NCBI GenBank assembly: GCA_032718475.1
Contig: JAUCBJ010008915.1
Location: 43,287 to 107,286 of the forward strand
From: Nemertoderma westbladi
Lineage: Eukaryota > Animalia > Xenacoelomorpha
Length of the DNA: 64,000 bases
Reading direction: 5' to 3'
The number at the start of each line of letters is the position of its first letter. Position 1 is the first letter of the stretch. The position numbers were made by a program, and so were the translations under genes. This document shows positions 30,103 through 62,593 of this stretch, piece by piece. The notes beneath the pieces are model-generated. The model did no database searches. It saw only the letters and a list, made by a program, of their open reading frames with translations, and was not told the origin of the DNA.

Positions 30103-30186
30103 TTGCATCAACTACTGTATTTGTATCATGATCAGCAAGGTACAATTACCATAGATCATGATATCCAACATAAATATAGGTCTTAA

Positions 30187-38893: not shown

Positions 38894-41800
38894 ATGAATA
38901 CAGAATTCGGTGGTCACTATAGACCCAATATATCGCAGTCACCTAGCTCCAATACAATCGAGTCTGGAAGGTCGGGTAGGCCTCTAATCGCAAAGGTTAG
39001 TCTACGAAAAGTGAAACTGAAACTTCTTCCTTTTCCTTTCACTATCTGCATATAAAACTCAATTAAGCTTATCAGTGTATCTGTATCAGAGTTATGTAAC
39101 CAACCCCCATAACTACCGCCTAACTATTATACTTCTGCTACATTTGATCTTGAATCCTTCGATATGTGGAACGGTAAGGCATGGACTGGTTAAATAAAGT
39201 ATCAAGGGAAATCAGGCATGGAAATCACCTGGTATCTCATATTCTTTGAGGGCTTTCTCTTGATGGTACACATACTACGGGATGCTACGTATTCGAGACG
39301 GGGGGGGGGGGGGGGGCTGGACGCAAATCCCATCTCGTCCAAATAGTATTCGACTCAATGTTAAAATCACAATTTAGGGAAAGGAGCAGGTTACAGTGGT
39401 ACGTTATTCTAACCAAAACAATAAACGAAAATAAATAGAACAGGTTACAGTTTTATTTTTAAGAGTAATCAGCTGTTATTTGCGTCGATGGGGGGGTCGG
39501 GTTTGTCACTGAAATACGACACTATTCCAGGAGATGGACATGGAATTAATATGTATAGAGGAAGTGTGTTAGAGATGGGGTGGTACGATCTCTCTCTAGG
39601 GAGCGGCGATGCTGATACATTAACCATTGTCTCCATACACACTCCCCGACGAACGCGCAGACAGAGTTTTATTACTTCAGTTTCCCCCCAATTTTCCTCC
39701 TGCGCCGCCGCCGACTGTTTAAAGGATCCGCCACAAGTGAGTGGGGTGTAATCCAGAGAAAAGGGCAGGCTCTTATGTTAAGTGTGGAAAAGGGTATAAT
39801 ATTCTCCTGTATTCTCGGCAGCACGACCATGTATGTACCAATCGTGGTTCTACGTCATGGTAGGTAACTGGGATTGTGAATGGAAAGGTTTTACTTTGTA
39901 TTGAATTACCGGTTACCTTGGCAATGCTAGGTTGCTGGCTCCAGGCTGGGCCTGACAGGATCCACTGGTAACTTTCCGCTAGGTTTCCCCTAAGAGCCAA
40001 CCAACCAAATATTTTTGTTTTTATTTAATTATATATTCCATTCAACATATGGTTTGTTTTACATGAGAAATAAACTTGTACAAAAAATATTGTGTGAGGC
40101 ATATAAAGTGCAACAGCAGTTACATACCTGTTGTTAACTACAGTTGCTACTGAAGCCCAACCAACTTAATCATTCATAATTTAGGGTTTGTAATTCAGGT
40201 TCAACCGTCTAACCGTATCCGCATAAAAATTATAAAAATATGAAACGATATAATTATTAGTATAATTTTCCATAGGAATTCACTCAACGGATTTCTAATA
40301 CCGATTCCGTTTTCTTTATTTTACAGAGAACTTCTCAAAGGAGTTCCAATGATTCTATTCCTGAGAAAGCCGCCACAGAAGATCGAGAGAAATCCATCTC
40401 GAGTTCGGAAGAAAGTAAACTGTCCCGAGGTGGCTGGGGTAAACAGATCGAGTTTACTCTCTCTTGCATAGGGTTTTGCGTTGGTAGGTATTGTTAGGAA
40501 AGTGGCTCAGTTGTAACAAATATAAAAAATTCATTGACTAAAATCAACGTTAAAGGATAATATTAAACTTTTTGATTTTTAGTAAACGAATTGTTTCTGT
40601 TTGTAGATTGTGGTGGTTAGGCCTATACGATATTTTGTGGCTTAATAGTGTACAGCTTTGATGGCGTTAGAAACATGTATAATTATACCTACACCTAGTA
40701 GACTCATTACATATCCTAGCTTAATCGACAGTATCTGCAGCAATACCCTTCCCAATACCCACCCGTTCTATGTTTCCAGGTCTGGGTAATGTCTGGAGAT
40801 TTCCCTACAAATGCTACAAAAATGGGGGTGGAGCATTCCTTATACCATACTTCGTGATGTTGGTCCTCACGGGAATACCTATGTACTTTATGGAATTGTC
40901 ATTGGGACAGTACGCCAGTATGGGACCCATAGCTATATGGAATCTCGCTCCAATATTCCGAGGTAAGATAAATGGGGCGAGCCACTAAGTCAATGAGCCC
41001 TCTATCAATGATAGTTAGCATAGAGTTTACAGTAGTACGTTATTCCGCCCACCCGTGTTATAGAAGTCTCTATAGTGGGGCGAGTCGAAACTGCTATCTA
41101 TCAGCGAACTGTTATAATTATACTTTTTCCTAAATTTTCTAAAGGTCTGTGGTGTTGGTGTGTGTCATATGTGTGTGTGTCTGAAGCCAATATATAACTA
41201 GCCATAGTATAATTATAATTGTTTGCTGAGATGGCTTGCAGCTTTTGCTGCACGAAGGCCCCATTCGTGTTACAAACTTATTGATTACTTTCGTTCTAAC
41301 CTATATATATATATGTGCCGTAACGAACGCTGCAAAGTGTTATTATTTAGCGTTATGGGATTTCATACTTATTTTTAATTGAATAACATCTTCATACATC
41401 ACCAACAAACTTTTTTTTTTTTTTTATTTATTAGGACTTGGTTACGGTATGGTTACTATTGCATTCCTTGTTAGTCTTTACTACAACGTGATTATCGCTT
41501 GGGTTCTCTACTACCTGTTTGTTTCTTTCACCGACACACTTCCCTGGATAGGATGTGATAATCCATGGAACACAATCTACTGCGGTTAGTGCCGGAAGGA
41601 ATTAAAATATCTTGTTCCGGACATTGAAACTTTAAACCCCCTGCAAGGAGCATGCTGCTGTATGATTTATGTCTCGCACTAGTTTATTGAATATATCTGC
41701 CACCTAACACTAGTCGTCAGTTAGTGGGGCTTTCCCTAATAATTGCCATTTTTTTGTGGTATTTAAATTATAAAGTTGCACATTACACACACAGTGATGT

Positions 41801-44800
41801 AAATAAGGGAGACAGGTGGGGAGGGGGGGGGGGGTTGTAAATGGACGCAAATTTCATCTCGGCGAATTAACATCCCGCCTCCATGGGTTAAATCGTCAAT
41901 TTGAGCTAAGGAGCAGGTTGCAGTGGCGCGTTATTCTAACCAAAACAATAAACTAAAGTAAATAGAACAGGTTACAATTTTTTTTAGGAGTAATCAGCTG
42001 TTATATTTGCGTCGAATTTCCCCTGGAGAGGGATTCATTTGTATTGCGTCGAAAGTCTCCCCCTATCTGAAATAAGGTATGAATTCAAAACATGTGGTAA
42101 TTTAAAATTTATAATTGTTAAACTGCAGGTAAAATAAAAGAAGATTGTATGAAAGAGGGTGGAGTGATGGATAATATAACATGCAGATACAATCTCACCG
42201 ATGATGAAATAGCGAACGTGACTAAGGCGCCATGGAAACATCCCTCCGAGGAATTCTTTAAAAAAGAGGTAATTTTTAGATTTTATATTAAAGGTAAAGA
42301 GGATCCATTGTGCATCTCTACATTCAAAGAAATTATCATTTATAGCTTATAATAGGATAGTTCCAAAATTAATTGTTGTCTGCGGTCGTGGATGCGATAA
42401 CATTGAAATTCCAAGTAGTTACAGGGTGGGGGTGCTTCTCCTACTCCCTGCAATCCAATTAGCACTGCTCGCTATGGCCTGGCCTTTCTGGAGGTTCGTA
42501 GGAGCAGGTGCCTCTCGTAGTCTATATTGATTTCGATTCGATATTTCAAAGGAGGACGTAGTAGCCCTTCCAACTAATACTTAGAGGAACTCTCGTGGAA
42601 ACTGTAGAATATCAGTTTGACAGTGGAGGGTTTGAGGGGATTGTGTTCGCGGCCAGTGGCAATCGGTCATTGTCATTGGTTTGGTATCCGAATTTGAAAA
42701 GGACTACGAACGACGTAAAGATTGTGAAGAAGCTGTACCAAGCAAAGGGGGTAAACTTAATCTAAAGAAGAAGGCAAAACCCCAAAACCTGTTATCAAAG
42801 AGGCGTCAAGAGGAAAACATATGGTGAATGCTATGTGAACATAGGGTGTATTATATTTACATTAAATTAAATACAGGAGTGCTAAACAGACCATTATTGG
42901 ATGTTTGCAACCGGATGCTGAAAGGGGAAAAGCCACCACCAATTTGGAATAAAGGTCAACTAAAGCCTCTCCCTAAGAAAAGGAGACCTCAGTGTACCAA
43001 CAAACTATCTGAAAACTTTAAGAAAATTTTACTCAAAATTGCCATCCCGTTCCCGAAAATGGGGATCCCAAGAGTGGCCATCCCGGTCCCGATCCTGTAA
43101 ATCCCGATAAGTCTGATCCCATTTAAACACTACTAGTGTATAACCATTAAACTAACTGAGTTACGAATGTTAGGACATATAAACTGCTTTAGTTTCAGAA
43201 AATTAAGAATATTGCTTCGCTTTTAAGTTTAAATTTGATTATATAAAGTGAAAAATATTTATTAGTGTACTGTAGCTGGATTAAATTTATAAAGGCATTA
43301 GCGGTACTGGCTTGATTGCGCGGTATTTGCCACTGTACTACCCCTTGGGGTATGTATGATAATAATAATTAATTCAATTAGGTGGCAAAGGTGTTGCCCA
43401 TTTGCATGTTAAACGAGGCCATGGTGACTAATGGAATGAAAGGAGGAATTTAACTATAACTTACCGCAGGTGTACTGAAATTGCAATTCAGAAAGTACAC
43501 CACGCACCATCTGTATTATTACTGTGCCTGTCAATCACTCTAAGGTTCTGTGGGATGCCACTAGCCTGGCCTCTCGTTGTTTGAAGCAGTCGCCCTGCTC
43601 TTTGAGCTCAGTCTATATTCCTTTAGGTATGGATAAGCCTGCCTTACACTAACCCATGGCGTCTCTGCACAGAGGAATACTTGATCACTAGCTGGATGAT
43701 CGATCAGGAACTCAATGATCACTGGCTGTAAACTGTTTTACATTTTTATATTTCCTTCTCTAACATTCAGAGTCACATAATATTTCCCTTTTCGAATAAA
43801 TTAACTATTGTTTCTTTGAGTTGATCGCCGTTGCAACATCGTTGTTTTCTTTTAGGTCCTCCGACAATCGGATGGGATTGAAGAGATGGGAGGAATCAGT
43901 TGGCATCTAGCTATGTGTCTATTCCTGTCTTGGATTACAATATTCTTGTGTTTGCTAAAGGGCGTAAAGAGTTCAGGAAAGGTATGTGTTGGTTGGAACT
44001 CCTTTATTTGGTGAAGGAGATACAGTAATTGCAAAAGATTCGTATGGGGCGAGACAAGCTTAAAATATTTAGAAATAACTTATAATGAGTTTGCTGTCTG
44101 TCGGTGGCGCAATTATATTTGCCATATTATTTTTTCCAAAAATTAACAGATAAGGGGGGGGGGGGGACTTTGTGGTCCCGGTGTAGAAATAGGCGACAAT
44201 AAATTATAAATTTACATTGTTCATTGTATTTCGTTACACTTCATGGTGTCGCGCTCGTTTATCATATTTTCATCAGCAATGTAACAATTTTTGTATAAAA
44301 CTACATATTGTTGCATCTTTACAGGGTTCTGAACCCAATCACATTATTTTCACCTCTCGGATCATCTCACTGTAAAGTAATAAAATGCTAGTTTTTACAC
44401 AACTATGTAATTAAACCAAGTACACCTTGAATTAAACCCAACGCTAAATATATTTTTAAGATTTGCTTAAAACTCATGAAAAAATGTTGCACAACTTCCA
44501 AAGGGGAGTGTATATATTCGCTGTACAGGTTAATAATGATATTCTAGAATTCTAGAGTAGGCCCTAGCCAATAAGTAGATTTATTTAAATAGTTTATTGA
44601 TTTGAATGAATATGAATATCCGAACGTTATAAGTTTGAACAGTTTGAAAAGTTTGAACAGAGATTAATCTCTATCGGCAAAGTCATTGTATAATTAGTCA
44701 GTACGGACTAGTTATTGTGTAACAACATTATTACAGTAACAGTATTAACCAACGCCGATTAATAAGTTTTGGTTAGAATTCTGTTTTGTTTCTCAAAGTG

Positions 44801-47800
44801 AGGAACGCAATGGAACATGGAGCAAAAATCTATCATAAGACGTTAAGATTAGACTGTTAGAGGAGATGACGTTACAGAGTACCGTAGCAAAGTGCAGCAG
44901 TATAGTTTTGGGGTTTAGGCTTTCTTCACCAGTTTATGTGACCCTGGCTGCTGGCGGCCTTGCGGCTTGCGCCAAAAAAGTATAGATAGGAAAATTAAAC
45001 ACATATTTCAAATAGTTCAGTTTATCTGTTTATTGTTTATCCCACTCCTACCGCCTACCGGTAGGGCTACCAGCAGACCAGTAGTAGCGAACAGGCGAAT
45101 GAATGGTAGGCCTACCGGTACCGGTACGGCGGTATCCTGCGGTAGCAGGGGGGTTAACGAACATCACGTAACTTTATCTAACCGTTTATCCAGTTCTGCT
45201 TTGAGTTGTTCAGCGAACTCGGATTCTCCCTCCCCAATTTCGTCCCAGTCCTCGTCCCATAGATCGTCTTCCCCCTCCTGGGCTTGATACCCTCTTCCCA
45301 TGCGTCCGCCGCGAATTCCTCGAAATCGTCGTCTTCATACAACGTTCCTGCGACCGGTTTCTCGTCGGTTGAAACCTTCTTATCTTCCGATGGAGGGGAC
45401 TGTTGCTTAATTTCTTTCTTTATTGACATAGTTCTGTAGTTCTGTATTTTTCTGAATTCTGCACTGCAGCACTGATCACCGCTCGCCGGTCTTAGTTTTA
45501 GTATATTTAGTGCAAATAGATCATAGATCAGTACACAGCAGTAGGTCTGGTATTTTGTCTGTAGTCTGAATGTCTGATACAATATCCGTATTCTGAAATA
45601 GAGCGAGTAGGTCTCTATTACAGTATTAGTAGGCCCTACAGTAGTATTCAGGTAGGCCTATTTCCGGTCAGGAAGTCAGCCGATACTAGCTATTTAGGCT
45701 ACTATCTAGGGCAGGGCTAGGCCTACATCAGTCTGTCAGTCAGTCAGTACGTATTATGTAGGCCTAGGAGGCGTAGCTACGCGTAGTTTGTAACTTCCAT
45801 TCCTGTCATTCACCGGTAGGGCCAGACTTACAGCCTTTTTAACAACTACGCGTAGGTGTTTTAAAACTACGCGTAATTATTTTGGAACTACGCGTAGGTA
45901 TTTTGAAACTACGCGTAGGTGCTACGCCCGTAGCAGTCCTGATAACAATGATTTTTCATTTCAGGACCGGTAGGGTTGAGTTGTTAGGCAAGTATCGGTA
46001 TACGTCAGGTATCTGATTATCAGACAAATGGAATAACAGAATCGGAAGCTCATATCTCTACATACAGCACTGGTAATAAATAATATTCGGCTCTTTCACA
46101 TACAAACACAGGATGAATAAAAAGTACACTTAAAATTCACGTCTCATGATTCAATTATCTTTGTTTCCATTGGATTATTTAAATATTCTACAGTAGTAAG
46201 CTACCAGTCTACCGGTGAAGTGGTTAAGCGAAAGCTGATAAATACTGCATATACTGTAATTAAATTGTGGTCAAATATCAAGTGCAACCAATCGTGGTAG
46301 ACAATTTAGTCTCCCACTTCCCTTGTCAAAGGGTTAACATATTAAATATATCCTTTGCCCTATCGTGAACAAAGGCAATAAAAAGCAATGGAGGTCGAAA
46401 AGATTTACTCTCAAATTAGTATGGTTTACAACATATCAGAATATGCAATGCAGTTAGCTGGTTAGTCAGTTACTAAGTAGGCCTGCTGTCTGGCTGTAGG
46501 TGTAGGACAGTACAATAGGATACATTCACTTACACCGGAACCGGTACCTACTCACTTACAGTACCGTACTTACTATACTTTCAGTTTAATTACCGGTGCC
46601 GGTACGCAGTTTAATTATTGGTTTTATTTAGGCCTATCTGTTTATTCTTGATGTATGGGTACCTATCTGCCTATAGTCTGTAAGTCTGACAGTACCGGTA
46701 CCACAAGCAGTTTAGCTTTCTATGCCAAACTATTAATCATTACATTACTTAATCATTGCATTAGGCCTATTAAACAAACTATTGAACTAAGCATTTCTGC
46801 CGAAACCAAAACTGCCCTGTCCCCCGTCTGCCCGTCCCAATCTGCCAATGCTGCTATGCGGGGTTCGAACCCACGAGCCACGAACTCCACTTCTGCACTG
46901 GTGCACTGAGAAATTAATTCAATGCAACCAATCACCAAGCCATCAAGGTGGAACTTTTTAAAAATTTTCACTTTCTTTATTTTGTTACTGGTACTATAGG
47001 CCTATATTTACAGTATTTATATAACAGGTTAGGCATTTTGGGCATTAAGGCGTCATTAATCACTCTAATTCTACTAGGCCCCTATGCTACATACCGGTAC
47101 TACAGCTGTACAGTACTCTGGTGTCTGGTACTAACAGACTTTACCGGTAGGCCTAATTAATTAGGACCACTAGCGCTAGGGCTTATTTCTGTAAAAGTAT
47201 TTTGTATCCTGTATCTGTGTGTGTATTTATGTGGATGTGGGTTTCGGGGTGTATGTAGTAGTACACGTTCGTGGGGACTTCGCGCAGCACGTAGTCGGCA
47301 AGCCTTGGCATACGGTTCATATAGAGCAAATGGGGCATGTCTAGTTTGGACCCAATATCCCATGCTATAAATGTATTCATTCGATATACAATCATATGTT
47401 AATCCGCTAGGTGGTGTCAAATTGTTATTCTGCAATTTCGTACTTACCAGTGCAGCACTGTACAGCAGTACCGTACCGGTAGGCCTATGTCATTACTTCT
47501 GAGTCTCTAGCGGATCCCCAATTAAATGTCTTAACTTTTCAATTTCGTAAAAGATAGACTTCATGATTCTCTACAGGCCACCAAAATTTCAGCTCAGGAA
47601 AATGAGGCCTTCCCGAGAAATTTAACATTTTCTAAAAACCACATAATCTGTCGTAGCTGACGTCAGACTGCATGATTTTTCACCAAACTTTACAAACTTT
47701 CTAAACTTTCTCTCTACTACTTACCTACTAAGTTTGGTTCAATTCCGAACCAGCGATGCAGAGAAATTCGCGTTCAAACATTTACCAGACAGACGGACAG

Positions 47801-50800
47801 ACAGACGGACATGCCCCATTTGCCCTATATGAACCGTATGCCAAGGCTCGCCGACTACGTGTCTCGCCCCACAGTAGTATGTACCACTTACTGTAAGTAT
47901 ATCATGAAAACTCCTCCCAAACTATAGTGTATAGATCGTCCGTCAATGAAAGTTAATCAATCGACGCAGTTCAACCCCAGGCTGCCAGGATGTGGAAAAA
48001 TATAAGTTTCGAAAAAAAATAATACCGGTAGTCTGGTAGTGTCTTTTTTATTTCGAAAAATTGCCCCATAACACGAAAATTGCCATGTAGACAGATAGAC
48101 TCAATGATAAAAAAAAACTCCAGCTGGTGCTCATGGGGGCCTAGTAATGCTCCTACTATTGAATGGATATGACCAAACTGCAGAGAAGTATATTATTAGG
48201 ACTACTTGCCAAGCTTATTACTCTCTCACTCTATTCCAGACAAGTAGGCCTAAGCATAAACAACAATTGTTACATAGTTTGTAATGTGTAGGCCTATTAC
48301 CCCGTCAGCTGAATAGCTCTTCCCAGTGTGCAGTGAATCATATGGGGATATATATAAGGTTACTCACTGCTATGTTAGGTGGTAGGCCAGCTGATTGAAT
48401 TTTAAGAACTGGATGTTTTATACTGTAGGTTAATAATAATGACATTAGGGGCTGGGATTACTCTCTCTCAGACTGTAAGCAAATTTGTCCAATGGGGAGG
48501 GACACCCAACTGCACACTGCACTACGTTTGTCTATGTAGCTATGTACGGTCTTCTTATTAGTTCATATCACATTTCCATGATCATGATGGATAGAATATC
48601 TTATTTGAATGATAATATCAGCATCAGGACTGCAGGATTTTGCCTAATGTATAATTTACTGCTCAATCTTCAACTTCACATAATTTCTTACATTGCGTTG
48701 GCATACTGTAGCCGGTAGCATCACTGCAGCACTGTAGGCCCTACATCAGAACTTTGTAAACATAAACTTAGGACTTCTGGACTTAGGCAGGCCTGTATCA
48801 GTGTACTGCGGTTGCTGTAGGCCTACTCCAGTACTTAAAACTACAGTACACTACAACTTACAAACTTACAGACTGAATTGTTAAACCGTTGATGATATGA
48901 TATGGTATTAATGGTTATGGCGCTTCAATGTCCGACGGACAACGCAGTATATACCGACCGCTCGCGTCGGGAGTTTGCGAGCGGTGGCGGAGCGGCGTTG
49001 ATTAACGTGTTGGTCACCTTCCCCATCGCCAAGGTGATGTTCCGACAGACGATTCACGGTATGCGACTATCCGCCGCCGCCAGTATGATCCGCGACGAGG
49101 GATGGAGACACTTGTATCGGGGCGTCCTCCCTCCGTTGTTACAGAAGTTCTCTACAGTAACGATAATGTTCGGAACCTACAGTCTCTACTTCCATTACCT
49201 CACAGATATGTTCCCAAACACCCGTTCTGTAATGCGAACTACCCCGGCTGCCATGGCTGCCGGTATGACCGAGGCTATATTCGTACCTCTAGAAAGAGTT
49301 CAAGTTCTTCTTCAGCACCATCGCTATCACAAACAGTTTAGGAACACATTCCACGCATTGTACAGCCTGTCTGCCCACGGTGCACGCGAGTATTACAGAG
49401 GACTGACTCCCATTCTAGTCAGAAACAGTTTGTCCAACGCCTTATTCTTCAACCTCCGCGGTCCCATTAAACAGTTACTACCCCCCAGCACGACTTACCT
49501 CGGTAACTTCGCGTACGATTTCGTGTCCGGCGCGCTCCTCGGCGCTTTCCTCAGCACGTTATTTTTCCCAGTTAACGTCGTTAAGAACCGAATGCAAAGT
49601 GCAATTGGTGGGCCTTTCCATTCCCCCTCGCATATATTTCTATTAATTTTCCGTGAGCGCGATAAGAACCCGGCTACAATGTTCCGAGGGGTTCATCTCA
49701 ATTACACTAGGGCGCTGCTTTCTTGGGGGATTATAAATTCAACGTACGAAGTTTTACATTCGTACGTCTTTGTTAATCGATTGTCTTGAATTTGTTAATT
49801 AATAAATATTTATATCTTTCATTATTGAGTCGCAATCGTTTAGTGTTGTCGTCGAAAATTAAAAGTATCTTAGGCCTAATGGTTAAAATGTTTCTACTTC
49901 CAGTCAGACTGTGGAAGTTTAGTATTACATTAAATAAATTAATATTGAGACGGAACTAAATTTTATGTTGTCCTTTGAGACCAATAATAATGTTTTATAA
50001 CATTTTAGGTAATTGTAACGGTAATGGTATAAAATGTTGGTCTCAACGTGTTGCATAAAGTGTGGTTCCGTGTCAATCTACCTCCATTGGGTGTTGGAAA
50101 TGGTAATTACATATCAAAGTGGCTTTTTATTCAACTTTTACCCATAAACTTTACTGGAACTAACTAGTTTCTATATATTTACCAATTAATTAATTAATTA
50201 ATTGTGCTTAATGAAATTTATTAGGTGGAATAATTAATTTTTATAATTTTAATGGCAGTTTAAATCCAATCCAATCCAATCATGCACAAAATTATGAGCC
50301 TTAGGAACCCGCCACTCTAGTACCGGTGTTCGCTCTACTGTATTCCACCGCCGGTGCATATATTTTTTAATAACTTCGCTCAATCGGAAATAAATTTAAT
50401 GACAATCGGAAGCCAATACACATTAATTTAAATCCGCCTCTAGATGAAAGCGGGCAAAGTTACTATTCAAAAACAAAAAAACCTTGTCATATTTTTGGGT
50501 TTTGTATATATTTGCCCTTCGTTCTATACAACTTACAGCAATAAAGGTTTAATTTTAAATGCTAACTTATAACCCAGTCTGTTTAGCTATTATTGGCGGG
50601 TATCGATATTCAGTTAAATATTTGTGCTACTGAAGCAAACTATATCTGCTTTCCTATACTAGGATACCATAAGGTGTTCGTTCAATGACCGCTTGTGCTA
50701 CTGTAAACCGTTATTAGTACAATAATCGATTGTTTTTCTGTTTATTGGGAATTTTATGTTTTATTTTATACGAGTTTTCCATCATCTACTGAATACTGAA

Positions 50801-53800
50801 TTGTTAGATGATTGTATTTGTTGTTGATTATTTATCATTTAAGCAATTTCTAATTGATATAATATTTAATTGATTAAATAATTAATTGCGGAACAACGCA
50901 TATCTTAATGTACAATATCTTATTGTACAATATCTTAATGAATAGATTAGATAGAATAGATTAGCCGAAACTTGGTTGACGTACAAGTTTATAAAGAAAG
51001 TTATCAGAAGGGAAAGGAGCAGTTTACCTGCTTCAGGTGAAATGCTTCAATAAAAATTATTCCCAAAATGCCCTGAGACAATTTCCGCAAGGTTCCCAAA
51101 CTCCTATCACTAGTGCCTCGCTATATCCACACACGCTGGAGGCTCAGTTGAATACGCGGCCGCCAAATTTTGTAAACATTGTCTGCCTGGTATAGAGGCA
51201 GACGGAGTTTGCGATTTATAGTAAACAACCAATCCCAGAAATTAATTTAAATGTTTCAGGAAGACCCGTAATTATGGCCCTACATATTATTCATACAATA
51301 TGTTATTATACACAGAAATTATCTTACTTTTGGGAATTTCTTATTTACATTTAATCTAGATATTGATTATTGAGGCCTTCGCGCATCACATGAGTTAAAT
51401 TTATGTTTAGTGTCAACTCGAGATAATAGTAATAAAATATAAGCAGAATTCCCTTTATCATTATAGCGACAGCCTGGGTAACTGTAGATGGGTTAAGTAC
51501 TCAGCCTGAGGTCTCGAAAATATGTGCCAGGTATCATCTGGTCGAACAGATTTAAACACTAAATACGAAATGGAAGGAAGTTTTCACAGCAGACATTTCG
51601 CCCTCTAACGGTAGACGGGAGAATAATAAAAGGTCCAGCCTATTGAAAAGATGGTGCTGTTTAGTTGGCCCACTTATATGCAAAACTTCAGGTTGAACTT
51701 AGTTAAAACAAGAAAATCGAACAGTATGGTGTTCATTATCATGCATTTAACACTCACGGAGGACTGGAGAACTGCAGACCAATCAGATCTGGAAATGTGT
51801 TCTACTGTAGTACATATCTGCCAAGTTTTAGCTTGAGAACAAATCGTAATAATATCGAAAAATGAGACGGTTTTCATTTCAGACATTAATCTTTCCAGCG
51901 GCAGAGTAGAGAACTGCAGACGAATTAGCCTCCATTTAAAGACACGGCTAATGGTGTAGTGGGTTCGGCCTGAACGGATCAAATACAAAGAAATAGGGGA
52001 CTTTGAGATTTTTATCATGTAGCCTTGTATCGGAATTCTGTTGAACTAATGGTGTCTGAAAGTGAAAGTATGTTAAAAATCTCAACTTTTCCTCCTACAG
52101 TACAAATGTCTACAAATTTCCAACTCTACTGGTTTTTACCCAATGATCTATATTCCCTCATATATGTCCCCAGATTATCTATATTCCCTCATATATGTCC
52201 CCAGATTATCTATATTCCCTCATATATGTCCCCAGATTATCTATATTCCCTCATATATGTCCCCAGATTATCTATATTCCCTCATATATTTCCCCAGATT
52301 ATCTATATTCCCTCATATATTTCCCCAGATGATCTATATTCCCTCATATATTTCCCCAGATGATCTATATTCCCTCATATATTTCCCCAGATTATCTATA
52401 TTCCCTCATATATTTCCCCAGATTATCTATATTCCCTCATATATTTCCCCCAGATTATCTATATTCCCTCATATATTTCCCCAGATGATCTATATTCCCT
52501 CATATATTTCCCCAGATTATCTATATTCCCTCATATATTTCCCCAGATGATCTATATTCCCTCATATATTTCCCCAGATTATCTATATTCCCTCATATAT
52601 TTCCCCAGATTATCTATATTCCCTCATATATTTCCCCAGATTATCTATATTCCCTCATATATGTCCCCAGATTATCTATATTCCCTCATATATTTCCCCA
52701 GATGATCTATATTCCCTCATATATTTCCCCAGATGATCTATATTCCCTCATATATTTCCCCAGATTATCTATATTCCCTCATATATTTCCCCAGATTATC
52801 TATATTTCCTCATATATTTCCCCAGATTATCTATATTCCCTCATATATTTCCCCAGATTATCTATATTCCCTCATATATTTCCCCAGATTATCTATATTC
52901 CCTCATATATTTCCCCAGATTATCTATATTCCCTCATATATTTCCCCAGATGATCTATATTCCCTCATATATTTCCCCAGATTATCTATATTCCCTCATA
53001 TATGTCCCCAGGTTGTCTATATTCCCTCATATATTTCCCCAGATGATCTATATTCCCTCATATATTTCCCCAGATTATCTATATTCCCTCATATATTTCC
53101 CCAGATGATCTATATTCCCTCATATATGTCCCCAGATTATCTATATTCCCTCATATATGTCCCCAGATTATCTATATTCCCTCATATATGTCCCCAGATT
53201 ATCTATATTCCCTCATATATTTCCCCAGATGATCTATATTCCCTCATATATGTCCCCAGATTATCTATATTCCCTCATATATGTCCCCAGATTATCTATA
53301 TTCCCTCATATATGTCCCCAGATTATCTATATTCCCTCATATATTTCCCCAGATTATCTATATTCCCTCATATATTTCCCCAGATTATCTATATTCCCTC
53401 ATGTATTTCCCCAGATTATCTATATTCCCTCATATATTTCCCCAGATTATCTATATTCCCTCATATATTTCCCCAGATTATCTATATTCCCTCATATATT
53501 TCCCCAGATGATCTATATTCCCTCATATATTTCCCCAGGTTGTCTATATTCCCTCATATATTTCCCCAGATGATCTATATTCCCTCATATATTTCCCCAG
53601 ATTATCTATATTCCCTCATATATTTCCCCAGGTTGATCTATATTCCCTCATATATTTCCCCAGATGATCTATATTCCCTCATATATTTCCCCAGATTATC
53701 TATATTCCCTCATATATTTCCCCAGGTTGTCTACATAACTGCAACCTTCCCGTATGTGGTACTGTTCATTCTATTTATTCGAGGGGTCACCCTGGAAGGG

Positions 53801-56800
53801 GCCGGTGCCGGTATAGTTTTCTATATCACCCCCAACTTCACTCGTTTGGGAGAGGCCCAAGTGTGGGGCGATGCCGCTTCCCAAATATTCTTCTCCCTCG
53901 GCTTGGCCTTCGGTAGTCTAACTACAATGGCATCTTATAACAAATTCTCGTAAGTGTTGATATTTACAATCGCATCATCTTAATATCATACAATGTCAAT
54001 AACTGCTTTTGTAATTGGACCTAGAAGTTAAAGTACTGTTGTTAGCAAACTGTAGCCTCTGACACCAGTTTATTACTTTATAACTATTTCCTTGAATTGT
54101 TAACATTGTAATATTTTAATCATTCCCTATTAATTTTTTACTTTATATCTTCACAGGAACAATATTTACCGGGACGCTATGTTGGTCTCTGTTCTCAACT
54201 GTGCGACTTCGGTTTTCGCTGGCTTCGTTATATTTTCCATCATAGGGTTTATGGCCCACGATCTGGGAGTCGATGTTAAGGACGTTGTTGATGACGGTGA
54301 GTCTCTACAACCCAGCATCACCCTATTCCACCGGTCCATTGTCGCGGTGATATAAGACTTTGTATCTATAGATTGGATTTGCACTGTATCAAGGGAGCCA
54401 CAGATAAGTTTGGCTATTGTTTGAGTGTTAGCCGAATTAATACATTGCTGTTTCCATGGAAACTAGTTAGCCGAATTTTGATAAATTTGTTGTTACCAAG
54501 GAAACAAGTTCTCGAATTATTATAATAAGTAAAACGTAACCCGATTTATATTATAAATTCCTGTTTCCATGGTAAACAATAACTTTTTGTGCGTACAACT
54601 TACCATCTCTGGAATGTTAATATCATAAAAACCCGAACCCCATTTCCGAGAAAGGGGGGAAACTGGACGCAAATCCCATCTTGGTGAATTAATATCCCGC
54701 CTCAATGTTACATTCTCAATTTAGGGAAAGGAGCAGGTTACAGTGGCACGTTATTTTAATCAAAACAATAAAATAAACACAATAGAACAGGCTACAGTTT
54801 CATTTTTGAGAGTAATCAGCAGTTATTTGCGTCGAATTTCCCCTGAAGAGGGATTAATTTTTATTGCGTCCAGTTCCCCCCCCCCCCCCCCCTCCCCCTA
54901 TCTGCCATTTCCAAGGTACTTTCACTTTTCGTTTCTATTGTAGGCCCCGGATTGGCTTTCATTGCCTACCCCGAAGCATTGTCTCGCCTTCCGGGGGCCC
55001 CGGTATGGTCCGTTCTCTTCTTCTCCATGCTGCTCACCCTCGGTCTGGACTCGCAATTCGCTCAGTTTGAGACGGTCACCACGGCGATATTCGACTCGAT
55101 GCCTCGACTCCGTGTCAAGAAGCCGATGGTAACCGGAGTTATATGTCTGGGTTGCTTCTTCTTGTCGCTTCCGATGGCCTGCGACGGCGGGATGTATCTG
55201 TTGCACATTATGGATTGGTACACGGCTGGGTTCTCGTTAATGGTTATTTGTCTCATTGAGTGTCTCGCTGTTACATACGTTTATGGTTAGTAATGGTTGT
55301 TCTTACGTTTATGGTCAGTAATGGTTGTTCTTACGTTTATGGTTAGTTATGGTTGTTCTTACGTTTATTGTTAGTGGTTGTTCTTACGTTTATGGTTAGT
55401 AATGGTTGTTCGTACGTTTATGGTTAGTAATGGTTGTTCTTACCTTTATGGTTAGTAATGGTTGTTCTTACCTTTATGGTTAATAATGGTTGTTATCACG
55501 TTTATGGTTAGTAATGGTTGTTCTTACGTTTGTGGTGAGTAATGGTTGTTCTTACGTTTTTGGTTAGTAATGGTTGTTCTTACGTTTTTGGTTAGTAATG
55601 GTTGTTCTTACGTTTTTGGTTAGTAATGGTTGTTCTTACGTTTGTGGTTAGTAATGGTTATTCTTACGTTTATGGTTACTAATGGTTGTTCTTACGTTTA
55701 TGGTTAGTAATGGTTGTTCTTACGTTTATGGTTAGTAATGGTTGTTCTTACGTTTATGGTTAGTAATGGTTGTTCTTATCTTTATGGTTAGTAATGGTTG
55801 TTCTTACCTTTATGGTTAATAATGGTTGTTATCACGTTTATGGTTAGTAATGGTTGTTCTTACGTTTGTGGTGAGTAATGGTTGTTCTTACGTTTTTGGT
55901 TAGTAATGGTTGTTCTTGCGTTTTTGGTTAGTAATGGTAGTTCTTACGTTTGTGGTTAGTAATGGTTGTTCTTACGTTTGTGGTTAGTAATGGTTGTTCT
56001 TGCATTTTTGGTTAGTAATGGTTGTTCTTACGTTTGTGGTTAGTAATAGTTGTTCATACATTTATGGTTAGTAATGGTTGTTCTTACGTTTGTGGTGAGT
56101 AATGGTTGTTCTTACATTTATGGTTAGTAATGGTTGTTCTTACGTTTGTGGTGAGTAATGGTTGTTCTTACGTTTTTGGTTAGTAATGGTTGTTCTTGCG
56201 TTTTTGGTTAGTAATGGTTGTTCTTACGTTTGTGGATAGTAATGGTTGTTCTTACCTTTATGGTTAGTAATGGTTGTTATCACGTTTATAGTTAGTAATG
56301 GTTGTTCTTACGTTTATGGTTAGTAATGGTTGTTCTTACCTTTATGGTTAGTAATAGTTGTTCTTACATTTATGGTTAGTAATGGTTGTTCTTACGTTTA
56401 TGGTTAGTAATTGTTGTTCTTACCTTTATGGTTAATAATGGTTGTTATTACGTTTATGGTTAGTAATGGTTGTTCTTACCTTTATGGTTAATAATGGTTG
56501 TTATTACGTTTATGGTTAGTAATAGTTGTTCTTACTTTTATGGTTAGTAATGGTTGTTATTGCGTTTGTGGTTAGTAATGGTTGTTCTTACCTTTATGGT
56601 TAATAATGGTTGTTATCACGTTTATGGTTAGTAATGGTTGTTCTTACGTTTATGGTTAGTAATGGTTGTTCTTACCTTTATGGTTAGTAATAGTTGTTCT
56701 TACGTTTATGGTTAGTAATGGTTGTTCTTACGTTTATGGTTAGTAATGGTTGTTCTTACGTTTATGGTTAGTAATGGTTGTTCTTACCTTTATGGTTAAT

Positions 56801-59037
56801 AATGGTTGTTATTACGTTTATGGTTAGTAATGGTTGTTCTTACCTTTATGGTTAATAATGGTTGTTATTACGTTTATGGTTAGTAATAGTTGTTCTTACT
56901 TTTATGGTTAGTAATGGTTGTTATTGCGTTTGTGGTTAGTAATGGTTGTTCTTACCTTTATGGTTAATAATGGTTGTTATCACGTTTATGGTTAGTAATG
57001 GTTGTTCTTACGTTTATGGTTAGTAATGGTTGTTCTTACCTTTATGGTTAGTAATAGTTGTTCTTACATTTATGGTTAGTAATGGTTGTTCTTACGTTTA
57101 TGGTTAGTAATGGTTGTTCTTACCTTTATGGTTAATAATGGTTGTTATTACGTTTATGGTTAGTAATGGTTGTTCTTACCTTTATGGTTAATAATGGTTG
57201 TTATTACGTTTATGGTTAGTAATAGTTGTTATCACGTTTATGGTTAGTAATGGTTGCGAAAATATAAATTTATCTTAAATTGTAATATTTTTTTTCAACA
57301 GAACGCTAATGCTGACTCCAAACTCTAATCTTTTCCAATTAATAAATCCGATTCATACTTCAAAGGGATCAGTTTTCCATTGCTTGTGTTTATTTAATTA
57401 ATTTGTTTATTTAATTATGTTACTATCCCAAATGAAAGTGAGACTTTCGAAAATTTAAGAATTTAAAAAAACATTTACATCCATTTTCTGTAGATCGATA
57501 GAAGGGTTTTCATGTGGTGACATCGGTTTTCACCATCGAGTGTTTTTTTCATCATAAAATATCGATTACCACCAACTCTCATTTATTTTGTTTTTTTTAC
57601 TTTAGGTATTGACAGATTTTGTCTTCATATATATCAAATGACCAACTACAAACCGAATATCTGGTGGAAGGCCAGTTGGATGGGTATCACCCCGATCATG
57701 TTGTTTGGTGTCCTCGTGTTCAACCTTTACCAACACACCCCCGTCTATTACGAGACCTATGATTATCCCCATTGGGCGGTCGTTATGGGTCTACTAATGG
57801 CCATGGTCTCCTTGGCCTGGTTCCCTCTTATGGCATTTTGGGAGTTTTACAATGTATCTGGTGGATATAGAGAAGTTAGTATTGACCATATCGATACAAT
57901 AGAGCGAGAACAACAAATAGCAGAAATTTTCAAAAAGAATTCACCCAAAGTAACGCCAGATGGCGTTATGCATCGTATATGAAAATTCTAGAACCTATAT
58001 CTAGTCCATTTAGAAGATATTGTGCTAATACGCGAACCAGAAACACAACATTAAATTCGTAAAATATCAGAGGTAAAACAACCCATACCACACAAAAGTC
58101 ATTGCATTAGAGTGGGGTGCAATTATTTATCTTTGTGATAAAATTCTAGGCAAAACAACCCACAAGGCTAAAGAGTTTAAGTTTTTATAAATAGATTAAT
58201 TAATTCTTGCACCATTTATCGCCGTTTGATAGTTTATATGGTCTGTGATTTGTATCACCGTTCAATATATTATAACATGTCTATTATTAACTAATTAATT
58301 ACTTATATTAACATTTTAACGTAGTGCTGTACTGTCAGTATTTCCTGTCATGTATGAATAATAATAATAATAATAATAAACAATAAAGTAAATTAAAAAT
58401 TAATTTGAAAATAAATTTTCAGCTAAAGAGTAGGCTAATATTTAGTTTCATTTGGAGAAGTTCTGCCTCTCTAAAAATTTAGCAAAAAAAAAAGTTTTTT
58501 CTCCTTAAAAACTTATTTTTTGATAACCAGCCCCTATTTTATATTTGTTAATTATTGTACACACAGTATCTTAATAGACATACCAAAAATGAGATACAAC
58601 TGGATCCACCACTGAGGCAAATGGGACATTCATGTGAGGTAAACGGGACATTTTTAGTCGTTGTTGTTCTGAGTCAGAAATGGTCACAAATATCGATATA
58701 GCGAAACATACATAAACACAATGTTCCAGAATGTTGTGTATTTATGAAATAGACGGGATGGTACAATGACTACATGTTTTTTCGCCAATTTTAACTCAAC
58801 AATAAGGATTTACTATTATTGCAATTTCAGCGATTTCTGAAGTTATTAAAGCCTCTTCGATCCTGGGGTCCTGCGAGGCACGATGACCGTAAGGTTAGCC
58901 GGGAGTTACTGCTCGCTCGCGGATTAGTACCGGCGGATTCGGAACCCACATCGAGGGATGAATCGGAAATGTCGCCGGTCCCCGAGAAATATCCGCTGAA
59001 AAGGGAGCCGAGTATTCCAGAACAGTCGGTAGTCTAA
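38894..59037 (+). CDS. SLC6 Na+/Cl- dependent amino-acid transporter (proline/glycine transporter subfamily-like), 11 coding exons, ~679 aa
   Basis: Exons 38894-38995, 40327-40483, 40780-40962, 41435-41584, 42129-42268, 43856-43981, 53726-53949, 54157-54296, 54944-55285, 57606-57874 and 58831-59037 are all GT-AG and phase-compatible (2040 nt). Motifs include [53 protein letters not shown] and LGLDSQF. Gly rather than Asp in TM1 argues against a monoamine transporter. Confidence 0.93.
39317..39487 (+). repeat. Dispersed repeat family copy (also ~3920-4020, 41842-42030, 54662-54850)
   Basis: Shared GGACGCAAATCCCATCT...AATTTAGGGAAAGGAGCAGGTTACAGTGG...AACCAAAACAATAAAC...AACAGGTTACAGTTTT sequence. 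Confidence 0.8.
42860..43010 (+). mobile_element. Short RTE-like LINE fragment in an SLC6 intron
   Basis: Peptide [29 protein letters not shown] resembles the pre-RT region of LINE ORF2. Confidence 0.55.
45164..45429 (-). CDS. SEM1: SEM1/DSS1 (26S proteasome lid subunit), intronless, with an apparent 1-nt frameshift
   Basis: From ATG 45429: ...[15 protein letters not shown]. The C-terminal signature LWDEDWDE...[12 protein letters not shown] (stop at 45166-45164) lies in a shifted frame, with the switch near 45270-45292. Confidence 0.85.
47288..47861. mobile_element. Non-autonomous element with ~54-bp inverted repeats and (AGAC/GGAC)n tract (DINE-1/Helentron-like)
   Basis: CACGTAGTCGGCAAGCCTTGGCATACGGTTCATATAGAGCAAATGGGGCATGTC has a near-perfect inverse at 47808-47861, preceded by the microsatellite. 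Confidence 0.7.
48902..49789 (+). CDS. SLC25A51: Mitochondrial carrier SLC25A51/MCART1-like (NAD+ transporter), intronless, nested in SLC6 intron 6
   Basis: Three carrier repeats: [34 protein letters not shown]. Also [12 protein letters not shown] and [21 protein letters not shown], typical of SLC25A51. Confidence 0.9.
   Translation: MVLMVMALQCPTDNAVYTDRSRREFASGGGAALINVLVTFPIAKVMFRQTIHGMRLSAAASMIRDEGWRHLYRGVLPPLLQKFSTVTIMFGTYSLYFHYLTDMFPNTRSVMRTTPAAMAAGMTEAIFVPLERVQVLLQHHRYHKQFRNTFHALYSLSAHGAREYYRGLTPILVRNSLSNALFFNLRGPIKQLLPPSTTYLGNFAYDFVSGALLGAFLSTLFFPVNVVKNRMQSAIGGPFHSPSHIFLLIFRERDKNPATMFRGVHLNYTRALLSWGIINSTYEVLHSYVFVNRLS
52143..53733 (+). repeat. 31-bp minisatellite, ~51 copies, equal to the SLC6 exon-7 splice acceptor junction
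   Basis: Unit TATTCCCTCATATATTTCCCCAG|ATTATCTA. The last copy is the real acceptor CCCCAG|GTTGTCTAC at 53725/53726. Confidence 0.95.
55276..57256 (+). repeat. 28-bp minisatellite, ~71 copies, equal to the SLC6 exon-9 splice donor junction
   Basis: Unit TACGTTTATG|GTTAGTAATGGTTGTTCT. The first copy is the real donor at 55285/55286. Confidence 0.95.
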
Positions 59038-60817
59038 CTGGGAGCTGTCTGGATGTCGGAACTGGAGGTTTTATTACGAAATGTTTCCGTCTACACTCGC
59101 GGATGGACTTAATGGTTACTGATTCGAGATCTCCGATCGAGTTTGAGTGGTGGTGGGACGTTGTTTTCCAAACTATTAAACGTAATTATTGGATTTAGCT
59201 CTTATTTTTTAACTTAACGGATTAGCCTGGGTGCGATAGCTTACTAGTTGCTAATAACAACGAACTGCGCGCGGATTCGACGAGGCTTTCAATATTTATT
59301 TAGTCACTCAATAAATACATGTTCCATTAGTTTCGCTGTTAGTTTTTTAAATCCTTTCTACGTAATGTGGTGCGATTTCTACGGAGTCTCAACAGACCGC
59401 TATATATAAGAACAGAGCGACAACCACTGTTGATAACGTTAATTAACGTTAATTAATGTTTATTATTAATTTGGGTACATGAATGTGTTGCAATATAATA
59501 CTATTCTAACCAAAACAATAAACAATAGTAAATAATTAATACGACAATTAACTATTATTCGAAATGGCTGTTATCTTCAGTGGTTGTAATTAGTTAAATA
59601 TTTGTCTTAATTGTGGATCGAAACCATTTGAATCATCACTGAATATATTATTACTAACAATAGTAGCTGTTGTTGTATTAATGTAACTTATCACTCCGTC
59701 TATCCAGTGCGATGTGAAAATTGTAAATGTAAGAAGTGCCACTTTTTATTAGAATTATGTTTTAAAGAATAATAATTACTTTCGATCTGTTTTTAATTTG
59801 TTTTTGGTGTATCTGATAAAAACGTATTGTATGAACTCCTTCCCGACAATGTCTTAAAAGCAATGGTAAATTAACTCCTCCGTTTTAATATACTGTAGAT
59901 GTTGACAACCGGTGTTGTGGTGTTTAATGTTGACGATGTTTCTTTTATTTTTGGAATATTACAGTAGGTTTGTAATCTAACCGCTGCATTAATAAACCTA
60001 CTCAGTGCAACTTTACATATATGTGAAGTTGTTAATTTCGCGATATGTGCAATTTAACTTATGTTTTGTTGCTCTTATGTCATTCAAATCATTTTCTGGT
60101 TTCATTGGTTGGGGTAGATTATGTTTAATAATAATTATGTAGGGCATACCACAGAAGTTTTATAATCAATGCGATTCCAGCAAAATAAAGTTAATTCAAA
60201 TTCGGGTAGATGTTCTACTGAGGGAAATATCACGTCTGTTTCTCGTCACGTAACGTTGTGCGTCTACTAAACGACCCGACCAGGTTCAGTAAATTTAACA
60301 AGATTTGGATCATTAATTACAGAAAGTTGTAATTTTCCTATTCCTATACAGTATTTTCCAATAGGGCTACTCCCATGGAATTTTCCACAAATTTACCATC
60401 ATTTTTACGCGGTAAATGACGTGAATTCAAATTACCGGTATTGAACCTCTGAGTCTCACTAAATACAATTACTCCTCCCTTGTTTTCATTTATATTTTCG
60501 GATATCACATTTTTTGCAACCAACATGTTCAATTACATTACTAGGCCTACAGAAACTTTGTAAAAAAAATTAATAAATATGGAAAAAACACAAGTTTTTT
60601 AATATTTTTTTCTTTAAAAAATTGGGGAAATAGGCCTACTGTATTATGAAATGAAGCAAATTTATCGAAGCTTGTGAAATTGACAATCATATAAAGCAAT
60701 AATAACAAAAAACGGTTAATAAATGGCGGGAGGAGTAGTGTTTTTTTGTGTGAGGAAAGTCGTTCTTAGATAATTGCCTTCAAAGTTCCAATCTTCCCTG
60801 TTAAAATATTTTATGTT

Positions 60818-61424
60818 TGTTTAAATATTGCCTGGCTTGAAGGAAGCGCACCGCAGAGCTAAAATATCAACTGCTGAGGTCTGGTTGTTTAAATATTGCC
60901 TGGCTTGAAGGAAGCGCACCGCAGAGCTAAAATATCAACTGCTGAGGTCTGGTTGTTTAAATATTGCCTGGCTTGAAGGAAGCGCACCGCAGAGCTAAAA
61001 TATCAACTGCTGAGGTCTGGTTGTTTAAATATTGCCTGGCTTGAAGGAAGCGCACCGCAGAGCTAAAATATCAACTGCTGAGGTCTGGTTGTTTAAATAT
61101 TGCCTGGCTTGAAGGAAGCGCACCGCAGAGCTAAAATATCAACTGCTGAGGACTGGTTGTTTAAATATTGCCTGGCTTGAAGGAAGCACACCGCAGAGCT
61201 AAAATATCAACTGCTGAGGTCTGGTTGTTTAAATATTGCCTGGCTTGAAGGAAGCACACCGCAGAGCTAAAATATCAACTGCTGAGGTCTGGTTGTTTAA
61301 ATATTGCCTGGCTTGAAGGAAGCACACCGCAGAGCTAAAATATCAACTGCTGAGGTCTGGTTGTTTAAATATTGCCTGGCTTGAAGGAAGCACACCGCAG
61401 AGCTAAAATATCAACTGCTGAGGT
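60818..61424. repeat. 68-bp tandem repeat, 9 copies
   Basis: AAATATTGCCTGGCTTGAAGGAAGC(G/A)CACCGCAGAGCTAAAATATCAACTGCTGAGGTCTGGTTGTTT starts at 60823, 60891 ... 61367. Confidence 0.95.
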
Positions 61425-62593
61425 TTTCGTGGCCGGTAATTTCATTTCCGATATCAGTTTAAATATTTGGTTGAATCTCTGTCTGTAGTCTGTAGGTTGA
61501 TCTGTCTTGTTTACATTGTGATGGACAGGCCGGCCAACCAGCGATAAGTGGAACTCGTTAAAAAAAAGTTAAATGTGGTTCGACATAAGTAGTAATGGTT
61601 TACCCTATTTCGGCGACAATTGGACCAACTTCACACCTTGGGTGTTAAGTAGGTCATTAATTAATCAACCAATTAATTAATTGGTCGATTAAACAATTAA
61701 TTAATTGTTTAATCAATCGATTTGTATCAAATAATGTTGCCAAAGGCAATTTAATTTGATACAAATCAATCAGATAGGGGGCGCGAGATGAATAAATTGT
61801 ACTATAACAAACGAAATATACAATACAATAGGCACTGTGTGGCCCAGTTTGACCCTGAGTCATCCCTCAATAATCTGTGGCTGTTTGGGCTCTTATTAAC
61901 CGTAGCATGACTAATCCAAACATCAATGCGTGAATGGGGCCTGCGTGAATGGGGCCTGCGATAGAGCTTTAATTATTCAAACCTTCAGCTTTGTTATTAC
62001 ATCAATTCATCCAAGAAATTAGAATAAACATCTGCTCTTGCAATAGTTTGCATTCTTTCATATTGTACTTTATGAAGCGGTTTACGCATGCATTAGCTCA
62101 ACAACAAAGGCAATACCCAAACGCCATGTGTCAAACTAATTCCCAACCATCTCTTTACCACAGTGGATACTGCAGTTTTATTGTTTGAAAATATGCCTAA
62201 CCCCTCACGCATACCAGGCCTAAAATATTTGTTCGGAAGCTCTAGCATAACATTAATTAACATACCCATTCATTCATTACACACACTTTTCTCCGACGCA
62301 CTCCCCCGCTTCTCAATTCATCCCATTCCCAACCTAACTAATGTTTTACATTTAATTAACCCAATGAAATGTGTTTATTATTCCCTCAATCCAATAGCGC
62401 GTCTCTCTCTCTCTCTTTTTTATTTCTATTGGTTCCCACAAGCTTCACTTTTATTTTCATTGGTTATCCTTTCCCTTATAAACCCCCACCCTTCGCTTTG
62501 AACTTTACTTACAAAAATATTATTGACAATTTTACTTTTTATTTAAAGTTATAATACATTTATTGTTAATCATAATATTATATTTTCTTCACG

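What the first reader, a model, noticed from the sequence alone, without database searches (positions are those of the whole stretch)
52143..57256. Splice-junction-seeded minisatellites: both a 3' and a 5' splice site of one gene are tandemly amplified into their introns
Seen: two unrelated arrays 1.5 kb apart each have a unit that straddles an exon/intron boundary of the SLC6 gene (23 intron + 8 exon nt; 10 exon + 18 intron nt). In both, the functional site is the exon-proximal terminal copy and the array lies on the intron side. Inference: two independent satellites landing exactly on junctions suggest either a mutational process targeted at splice junctions (co-transcriptional R-loops, or repair slippage at exon edges) or a selective filter in which only such expansions survive. 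Either way the spliceosome must pick 1 of 50-70 near-identical sites, implying strict exon definition. Tandem duplication of junction sequence is also a proposed route to intron gain and growth.
Basis: partly seen in the sequence, partly recalled or inferred. Interest (0 to 1): 0.85.

Follow-up and report, generated by a model that had tools for sequence, protein, structure and literature searches.

The report
Two "mirage" minisatellites in SLC6 gene
In an animal amino-acid transporter gene, one splice acceptor and one splice donor are each repeated head-to-tail (51 and 71 times in the assembly) into the neighbouring intron, and the one spliced transcript seen uses the copy next to the exon; this repeat type is already known from lancelets, chicken and a human gene, and it is likely a harmless by-product of local DNA slippage.

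Summary
Confirmed, and a known kind of repeat. A 31-nt unit x51 ends at the exon-6 acceptor and a 28-nt unit x71 starts at the exon-8 donor of an intact SLC6 (PROT/GlyT-like) gene. A spliced contig in run X4 (depth 518) joins exon 5 to the last acceptor copy and leaves exon 8 at the first donor copy. Array-1 units in three DNA runs show no foreign flank, so local birth is likely; depth hints the copy number is not fixed. Both introns sit at positions shared with SLC6 relatives, so no intron was gained, and 2 of 45 related loci carry junction repeats of their own. This matches lancelet 'mirages', the human F7 intron-7 VNTR and chicken 'exon stuttering'. This scan found it before, in this genome and at least 15 genomes. 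Corrections: only 2 of 50 spare acceptors carry the true exon 8-mer, 47 have A instead of G at +1, and the arrays have opposite G-skew, which counts against a shared R-loop cause. Genome-wide enrichment could not be tested.

The parts
52143..53733 (+). Array 1: 31-nt minisatellite of the 3' end of intron 5, 51 acceptor copies (8-mer + 23-nt pyrimidine tract ending CCCCAG); the last copy is the true acceptor and periodicity runs about 8 nt into exon 6
55276..57256 (+). Array 2: 28-nt minisatellite of the exon 8/intron 8 border, 71 units; the first holds the true donor; 37 of 70 spare copies are identical to it at -3..+6, 4 carry GTGAGT; a 10-unit block is duplicated
40327..59037 (+). Host SLC6 transporter gene (PROT/GlyT-like), 10 modelled coding exons, open for 645 codons; the start codon lies in an unmapped upstream exon
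43856..43981 (+). Exon 5 (ends ...SGK); its 3' end is joined directly to exon 6 in the X4 contig
   Evidence: loose end before 53724
43982..53725 (+). Intron 5 (9,744 nt, phase 0, GK|VVY), position shared with SLC6 relatives; ends in array 1
53726..53949 (+). Exon 6 (224 nt), begins at the last acceptor copy
54157..54296 (+). Exon 7 (140 nt); both flanking introns seen spliced out in X4
   Evidence: joints 53949>54157 and 54295>54943, GT..AG
54944..55285 (+). Exon 8 (342 nt), ends at the first donor copy
55286..57605 (+). Intron 8 (2,320 nt, phase 1, YG|); 85% of it is array 2; an in-frame TAG at intron nt 3-5 follows the donor
57606..57874 (+). Exon 9 (269 nt), by homology; its join to exon 8 was not displayed in the laid stretch

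Best explanation
These are two 'mirage'-type minisatellites, tandem copies of the gene's own splice junctions that likely arose in place by slippage at short imperfect repeats and are likely neutral, because the spliced transcript seen uses only the copy next to the exon. Shown: anatomy, intact reading frame, terminal-copy use in one run, no foreign flanks on array-1 contigs, ancestral intron positions. Inferred: a first 28-31-nt duplication seeded by microhomology between the exon edge and intron sequence one unit away; growth by further slippage or unequal exchange (duplicated 10-unit block); survival only where the copies fall on the intron side. Inferred from mammalian work: the first donor wins by 5'-to-3' priority, and the last acceptor wins because only it is followed by a full exon and a nearby donor (cross-exon proximity). 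Predicted: most errors would be removed by nonsense-mediated decay (all downstream donors; 40 of 50 upstream acceptors).
For: X4 contig of 3,554 nt, depth 517.9: exon 5 end joined at 53724-53726 and exit at 55285-55287. X4 depth in the first 46 nt of intron 8 (33.8) equals the 3-nt overhang of that one contig (517.9 x 3/46, by hand), and the only other X4 piece on array 1 is a 61-nt unit contig at depth 3.36. DNA runs X1-X3: 83 contigs laid on 53632-54620; the 3 loose ends at array positions are unit sequence (2) or the array's own 5' flank (1). The 49-nt unit pattern has 0 exact matches in metagenome contigs. Edge homology: intron-side edge versus exon start 7 of 11 nt; both 8-mer versions and a hybrid occur among units. 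In array 2, 14 of 70 units keep TGTTA like the exon's CTGTTACAT and one has TTCAT. Repeated 10-unit block, 0 of 500 shuffles. The intron is at the same place in 14 of 20 related loci for the acceptor (6 continuous) and 2 of 6 for the donor. Precedents: PMC3087553, PMC3902484, PMC1557585, bioRxiv 10.1101/2025.09.16.676548, PMC9225289.
Against: One RNA-like run only, as contigs, which drop rare forms; decay of mis-spliced RNA would hide decoy use. X4 is labelled 'DNA?' and is read as RNA because introns have zero cover. 10 of 50 upstream acceptors are in frame without a stop (adding 52-331 aa), so decay does not cover all errors. The microhomology is modest and could instead be an eroded unit. 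The model does not itself explain why both long arrays of this gene sit on junctions (about 0.001 by placement; post hoc). PMC9225289 reports a general upstream preference for alternative 3' sites, only reduced under exon definition. Array 1 shows no block structure above shuffles (470 of 500 reach it).
Confidence: 0.8

Rival explanations
1. Duplications are mutationally drawn to exon edges in this lineage (for example by repair or polymerase slippage where chromatin, base composition or spliceosome loading changes), so junction arrays are over-produced and not merely tolerated. This adds to the best explanation and does not replace it.
For: Both long arrays of the gene sit on junctions. The 5' edge of array 1 falls exactly on the exon +1 register. 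There is a GC step from 0.27-0.35 in introns to 0.49-0.54 in exons. In related loci 2 of 10 arrays straddle predicted SLC6 junctions, 0.32 expected, P about 0.04.
Against: The sample is tiny and chosen after the fact. 8 of those 10 arrays are not at junctions, and the window's two other long arrays (7902-10047, 60817-61424) could not be tied to a junction. The R-loop version fails on opposite skews. No genome-wide test was possible.
Confidence: 0.4
2. Pure coincidence in a repeat-rich genome: arrays arise anywhere, exon-disrupting ones are purged, and two happened to start on junctions.
For: 52 TRF rows and 4 arrays over 500 nt in 64 kb. The window was chosen for the pattern. 16 of 18 junctions have no repeat.
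Against: Purging exonic arrays does not favour junction over deep-intron seeds; placement chance is about 3% per array. The pattern recurs at SLC6 junctions in L018 and L035.
Confidence: 0.25
3. The arrays are functional splicing or expression elements: spare U2AF or U1 sites, or U/GU-rich enhancers, that tune splicing of this transporter.
For: Array 2 is GU-rich just downstream of a non-consensus GTTAGT donor. Tandem repeats linked to splicing variation exist in humans (PMC10078293, search listing only).
Against: Units are unrelated between arrays and not shared with homologous loci. Two other GTTAGT donors in the gene have no array. There is no pairing between the arrays (-16.0 kcal/mol; 92% of 200 shuffled-unit pairs are as stable or more). 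Depth suggests unstable length.
Confidence: 0.07
4. The arrays are assembly artefacts, or a dispersed satellite inserted at the junctions.
For: No record spans an array, and k-mer depth does not match the assembled copy number.
Against: Unit contigs reach depth 2,200 against 36.7 for unique sequence in X1 and are present in X2 and X3. There are 9 and 29 unit variants. Units match conserved SLC6 coding edges, and no foreign flanks were seen for array 1.
Confidence: 0.03

Closest known systems
Lancelet 'mirage' minisatellites (Adh3, globins BflGb6/BflGb9, troponin C, PGBD5). Seen: passages of PMC3087553 and PMC3902484; the original Adh3 paper PMC117041 was not held and is known only as cited there
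   Same: Tandem copies of an exon/intron boundary on either the acceptor or the donor side, lying in the intron; unit length within the 10-72 bp quoted for Adh3; normal splicing preserved.
   Different: The host is an animal with no close relative among the proteins found (best hits 60% for an SLC6 exon, 57% for SLC25A51; the one Branchiostoma SLC6 hit is 57%), so it is probably not Branchiostoma. It has 51 and 71 copies against 2-7 in the globin and PGBD5 cases. Length polymorphism is only hinted at here.
Human F7 intron-7 37-bp VNTR (PMC1557585; abstract and Discussion read)
   Same: The first monomer spans the exon/intron border; identical downstream pseudo-donors stay silent; the most upstream donor is used even against somewhat stronger copies, as with the 4 GTGAGT copies here.
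   Different: 5-9 copies, donor side only, mechanism tested in mammalian cells; here 71 donor copies plus an acceptor array, with no experiment.
Chicken 'exon stuttering' on dot chromosomes (bioRxiv 10.1101/2025.09.16.676548; passages and part 1 of 2 of section 6; supplements not seen)
   Same: Local expansion of an exon edge with its splice site into the adjacent intron; coding region intact; spans of 112-23,555 bp.
   Different: Tied to GC-rich dot chromosomes, 1-44 copies, less regular units; here AT-rich (31-34% GC) and regular 28/31-nt units.
Intron gain by tandem duplication of proto-splice sites (as discussed in PMC3087553; PMC4974935 seen as a search listing only)
   Same: Tandem duplication that includes splice signals.
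   Different: No new intron here: both positions are shared with other SLC6 loci; the arrays only lengthen old introns.

Membership tests
Mirage / exon-boundary minisatellite | Head-to-tail repeat whose unit spans a real exon-intron boundary and holds the GT or AG | tested here: met
   boundaries confirmed by a spliced contig. Met loosely for array 1, where most copies differ from the exon's first 8 nt.
Mirage / exon-boundary minisatellite | Copies lie in the adjacent intron and the coding exon stays intact | tested here: met
   645 codons open over 10 exons.
Mirage / exon-boundary minisatellite | Normal splicing at the authentic terminal site | tested here: met
   One run, contig level: X4 depth 517.9 for the normal form, 3.36 for a unit-only piece. 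Rare forms are not excluded.
Mirage / exon-boundary minisatellite | Locus-specific unit of local origin | tested here: met
   No matches elsewhere in the window; no foreign flank on array-1 contigs; 0 metagenome matches for the array-1 unit. Flanks of array-2 contigs were not resolved.
Mirage / exon-boundary minisatellite | Length instability between alleles or cells | tested here: inconclusive
   Array-1 k-mer depth is 2.7-3.0 times the assembled count in X1 (2 contigs) and 0.4-0.6 times in X3 (3 contigs; single-copy depth uncertain). Assembly collapse would look the same.
Intron gain by tandem duplication | A new intron position absent from homologues | tested here: not met
   Same acceptor position in 14 of 20 related loci and same donor position in 2 of 6 (the rest continuous or unclear).
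R-loop-prone repeat | G-rich nascent RNA strand with G clusters | tested here: not met
   Array 1 sense skew -0.69; array 2 +0.52 but 31% GC and no GGG. The criterion is recalled knowledge.
Junction-targeted mutational process | Genome-wide excess of arrays at annotated junctions | not testable with these tools
   No genome held; only small local tallies.

The most novel reading that the evidence does not exclude
This animal has a mutational process that fires tandem duplications at exon edges, and splicing then edits the arrays asymmetrically. Acceptor arrays, whose decoys are transcribed before the real site, expand only after their copies lose the +1 G (47 of 50 here; 8 of 9 real acceptors of the gene have G). 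Donor arrays keep perfect or better decoys (37 identical and 4 GTGAGT of 70) because the first donor always wins. The genome would then be a ready-made, many-locus test of splice-site choice.
Probability: 0.2. Interest if true: 0.6.

Novelty: new member of a known kind. Interest (0 to 1): 0.24.

Why it matters
The locus itself is an ordinary, mid-sized case of a described repeat type with no visible effect on the gene. Its use is as a tidy paired example: an acceptor array and a donor array in one gene, both with transcript evidence. If the acceptor/donor asymmetry in decoy quality and the excess at junctions hold across the genome, it would make two open questions testable: why duplications crowd exon edges, and how the spliceosome picks one of many equal sites outside mammals.

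Tried and rejected
Whole-genome TRF test: no genome held. Run search: no RNA holder listed, yet X4 turned out to hold a spliced contig. The original mirage paper was not held. First gene models had off-by-one borders (the frame counts are void and replaced). A scan of the other 16 junctions found no old or two-copy repeats (best score 5). Pairing between the arrays: rejected. Higher-order block structure in array 1: none. R-loop as common cause: rejected. Intron gain: rejected. The window's other long arrays (13-mer 7902-10047, 68-mer 60817-61424) could not be tied to a junction, and no RNA test was left. For the tally of 10 arrays in related loci I dropped L027 and L044 (one continuous match, no introns) and L042 (duplicate of L041), merged overlapping periods, kept only period >=10 and score >=80, and entered junction counts by hand from tblastn ends. 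Literature: eight searches; (tandem repeats, exon-intron boundaries, enrichment, minisatellites, invertebrate genome) returned 0 papers, and I saw no genome-wide invertebrate enrichment test in these listings. PMC12783039 (passages) was not relevant.

Full report
Observation. TRF finds a 31-nt array at 52135-53733 (51.5 copies) and a 28-nt array at 55276-57256 (70.9 copies). Exon 8 matches SLC6 amino-acid transporters (human PROT structure E 2.6e-32; best animal hit 60%). tblastn with 5 of those proteins placed eight exon matches on the + strand. A hand-refined 10-exon model with 9 GT-AG introns is open for 645 codons. Array 1 ends at the acceptor of exon 6 (53726) and array 2 starts at the donor of exon 8 (55285). 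All pattern matches in the window lie inside the arrays (51 and 70 matches, 0 in shuffles).

Which copy is used. Of 6 runs listed, 4 were laid. X4 is labelled 'DNA?' but has no cover of introns and holds one 3,554-nt contig at depth 517.9 with GT..AG joints over introns 6 and 7; X1-X3 show no such joint. Its loose end before 53724 is the 3' end of exon 5, so the last acceptor copy is used. It leaves the genome sequence at 55285-55287, the first donor; the partner exon was not displayed. Use of any later donor would cover the first intron bases, and X4 depth there (33.8) equals the overhang of that one contig. On array 1 the only other X4 piece is 61 nt of unit sequence at depth 3.36, about 0.6% of the main form. 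This is one run at contig level, so rare forms are not excluded.

Real and local. Unit contigs reach depth 2,200 against 36.7 for unique sequence in X1 and are present in X2 and X3. Among 83 DNA contigs laid on 53632-54620, the 3 loose ends at array positions are unit sequence or the array's own 5' flank. The array-1 unit has no exact match in metagenome contigs. Depth is 2.7-3.0 times the assembled k-mer count in X1 and 0.4-0.6 times in X3 (5 contigs examined). The count of 51 is therefore not established: either length varies or the assembly collapsed it. Array-2 length was not tested this way.

How the units arose (inferred). Array 1 has 51 copies of a 23-nt acceptor; the following 8-mer is one A-starting form in 34, a second in 13, the exon's own in 3 (one of them the real exon) and a hybrid in 1. 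The A-forms match the array's intron-side edge (7/8, 8/8) better than the exon (6/8, 5/8), and edge and exon share 7 of 11 nt. The unit is thus about the last 31 nt of the intron, with the exon start acting as an imperfect repeat one unit away, a likely seed for slippage; an eroded exon-derived edge is the alternative. In array 2 the linker before each exon-like 9-mer resembles exon sequence further upstream (14 of 70 units keep TGTTA, one has TTCAT). About 14 nt per unit may therefore be exon-derived rather than 10. A duplicated block of 10 units (0 of 500 shuffles) shows later long-range exchange; array 1 has no such block.

Why it is tolerated. Reading past the first donor meets TAG at intron nt 3-5, so all 70 later donors would give a premature stop. 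Of 50 upstream acceptors, 34 shift the frame, 6 hit a stop and 10 stay open, the nearest adding 52 residues. In human F7 a 37-bp VNTR gives 5-9 identical donors; only the first is used, the others work when it is removed, and fairly strong copies do not compete (PMC1557585, abstract and Discussion). PMC9225289 (abstract and section 9) reports that sites closest across the exon are favoured under exon definition. For 3' sites it reports that a long-upstream, short-downstream layout behaves like exon definition; exon 6 has 9,744 and 207 nt. The same section reports a general upstream preference for 3' sites, so the acceptor side is the harder case. It is notable that 47 of 50 spare acceptors have A at +1 while 8 of 9 real acceptors of the gene have G, whereas 37 of 70 spare donors are identical to the real one and 4 read GTGAGT. 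With one array per side this may be drift.

Relatives and chance. Of 45 related loci, 20 have a match starting at the exon's first residue; 14 show AG with a pyrimidine tract there and 6 are continuous. Of 6 loci reaching the exon-8 end, 2 show a donor at the same base. Both introns are old, so this is intron growth, not gain. L018 has a 20-nt unit x5.6 on a predicted SLC6 donor and L035 a 52-nt two-copy repeat on a predicted acceptor. Two of 10 arrays in 7 intron-bearing loci straddle junctions, 0.32 expected, P about 0.04 (dropped rows are listed under Tried and rejected). In the window, 2 of 18 junctions score at least 20 against 1.2% of 600 random positions, and placement chance is about 0.001. 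These figures lean towards an excess at junctions but are small and post hoc; no genome was held for a proper test. R-loops are a poor common cause, given sense-strand skews of -0.69 and +0.52 at 31-34% GC, and the two arrays do not pair.

What is known. PMC3087553 (passages) describes 'mirages' in lancelets: tandem duplications of either boundary, 10-72 bp units at Adh3, unstable in length, not disturbing splicing, mechanism unclear, proposed as a route to intron gain. PMC3902484 (passages) adds PGBD5 and troponin C. The chicken preprint 10.1101/2025.09.16.676548 (passages and part of section 6; supplements not seen) counts 236 introns with exon-edge copies. I reached the mirage paper. The later look-ups showed that this scan has noted the same thing in at least 15 genomes and on other pieces of this genome, with up to about 2,100 copies. 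They supplied the F7 and chicken leads, which I then read. Those notes are unchecked and are not counted as evidence. The host has no close named relative among the proteins found.

Verdict. A real pair of mirage-type minisatellites, a new member of a known kind, likely neutral. What draws duplications to exon edges, and whether acceptor decoys are selectively weakened, remains open and needs the genome.

Noticed in passing
window:48896-49786 (+): An intronless SLC25A51-like mitochondrial carrier ORF (Pfam Mito_carr; best hit 57%) lies inside intron 5 of the SLC6 gene on the same strand, 2.4 kb before array 1.
   Followed up: partly
window:54652-54890; also 41839-42050, 39308-39488, 3915-4019: A very high-copy element of about 240 nt with G/C-run terminal inverted repeats (MITE-like) in intron 7; summed contig depth up to about 450,000 in X1; further copies at 83-87% identity in the window.
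   Followed up: partly
window:53811-53899 (contigs in X1, X2, X3): An 89-nt piece of exon 6 occurs elsewhere in the genome with 8 differences and foreign flanks, plus a shorter variant at depth up to 182 in X3; possibly an exon fragment carried by a repeated element.
   Followed up: no
L018:4100-4211 and L035:1224-1327: SLC6 homologues in other records carry their own junction repeats: a 20-nt unit x5.6 at a predicted donor, and a 52-nt unit x2 at a predicted acceptor.
   Followed up: partly
window:7902-10047: A degenerate 13-nt satellite (164 copies, 70% matches) ending about 150 nt before a two-exon minus-strand ORF (7777-7241, 7090-5246) with no Pfam match.
   Followed up: partly
window:60817-61424: A near-perfect 68-nt array (8.9 copies, 99%), downstream of the SLC6 gene, not tied to any junction.
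   Followed up: partly
window:710-1447, 17280-18254, 22019-22417 (+): Single long ORFs matching BART-domain, PP1-type phosphatase and profilin families, apparently without introns; possibly retrocopies.
   Followed up: no
window:22510-25248 and 62576-64000 (+): Long ORFs (913 aa; at least 474 aa, cut by the window end) with no Pfam match.
   Followed up: no
window:13229-16856 and 29108-30183 (+): Fragmented reverse-transcriptase ORFs of non-LTR retroelement type.
   Followed up: no
window:41585, 55286, 57875: 3 of 9 donors of this gene read GTTAGT.
   Followed up: no
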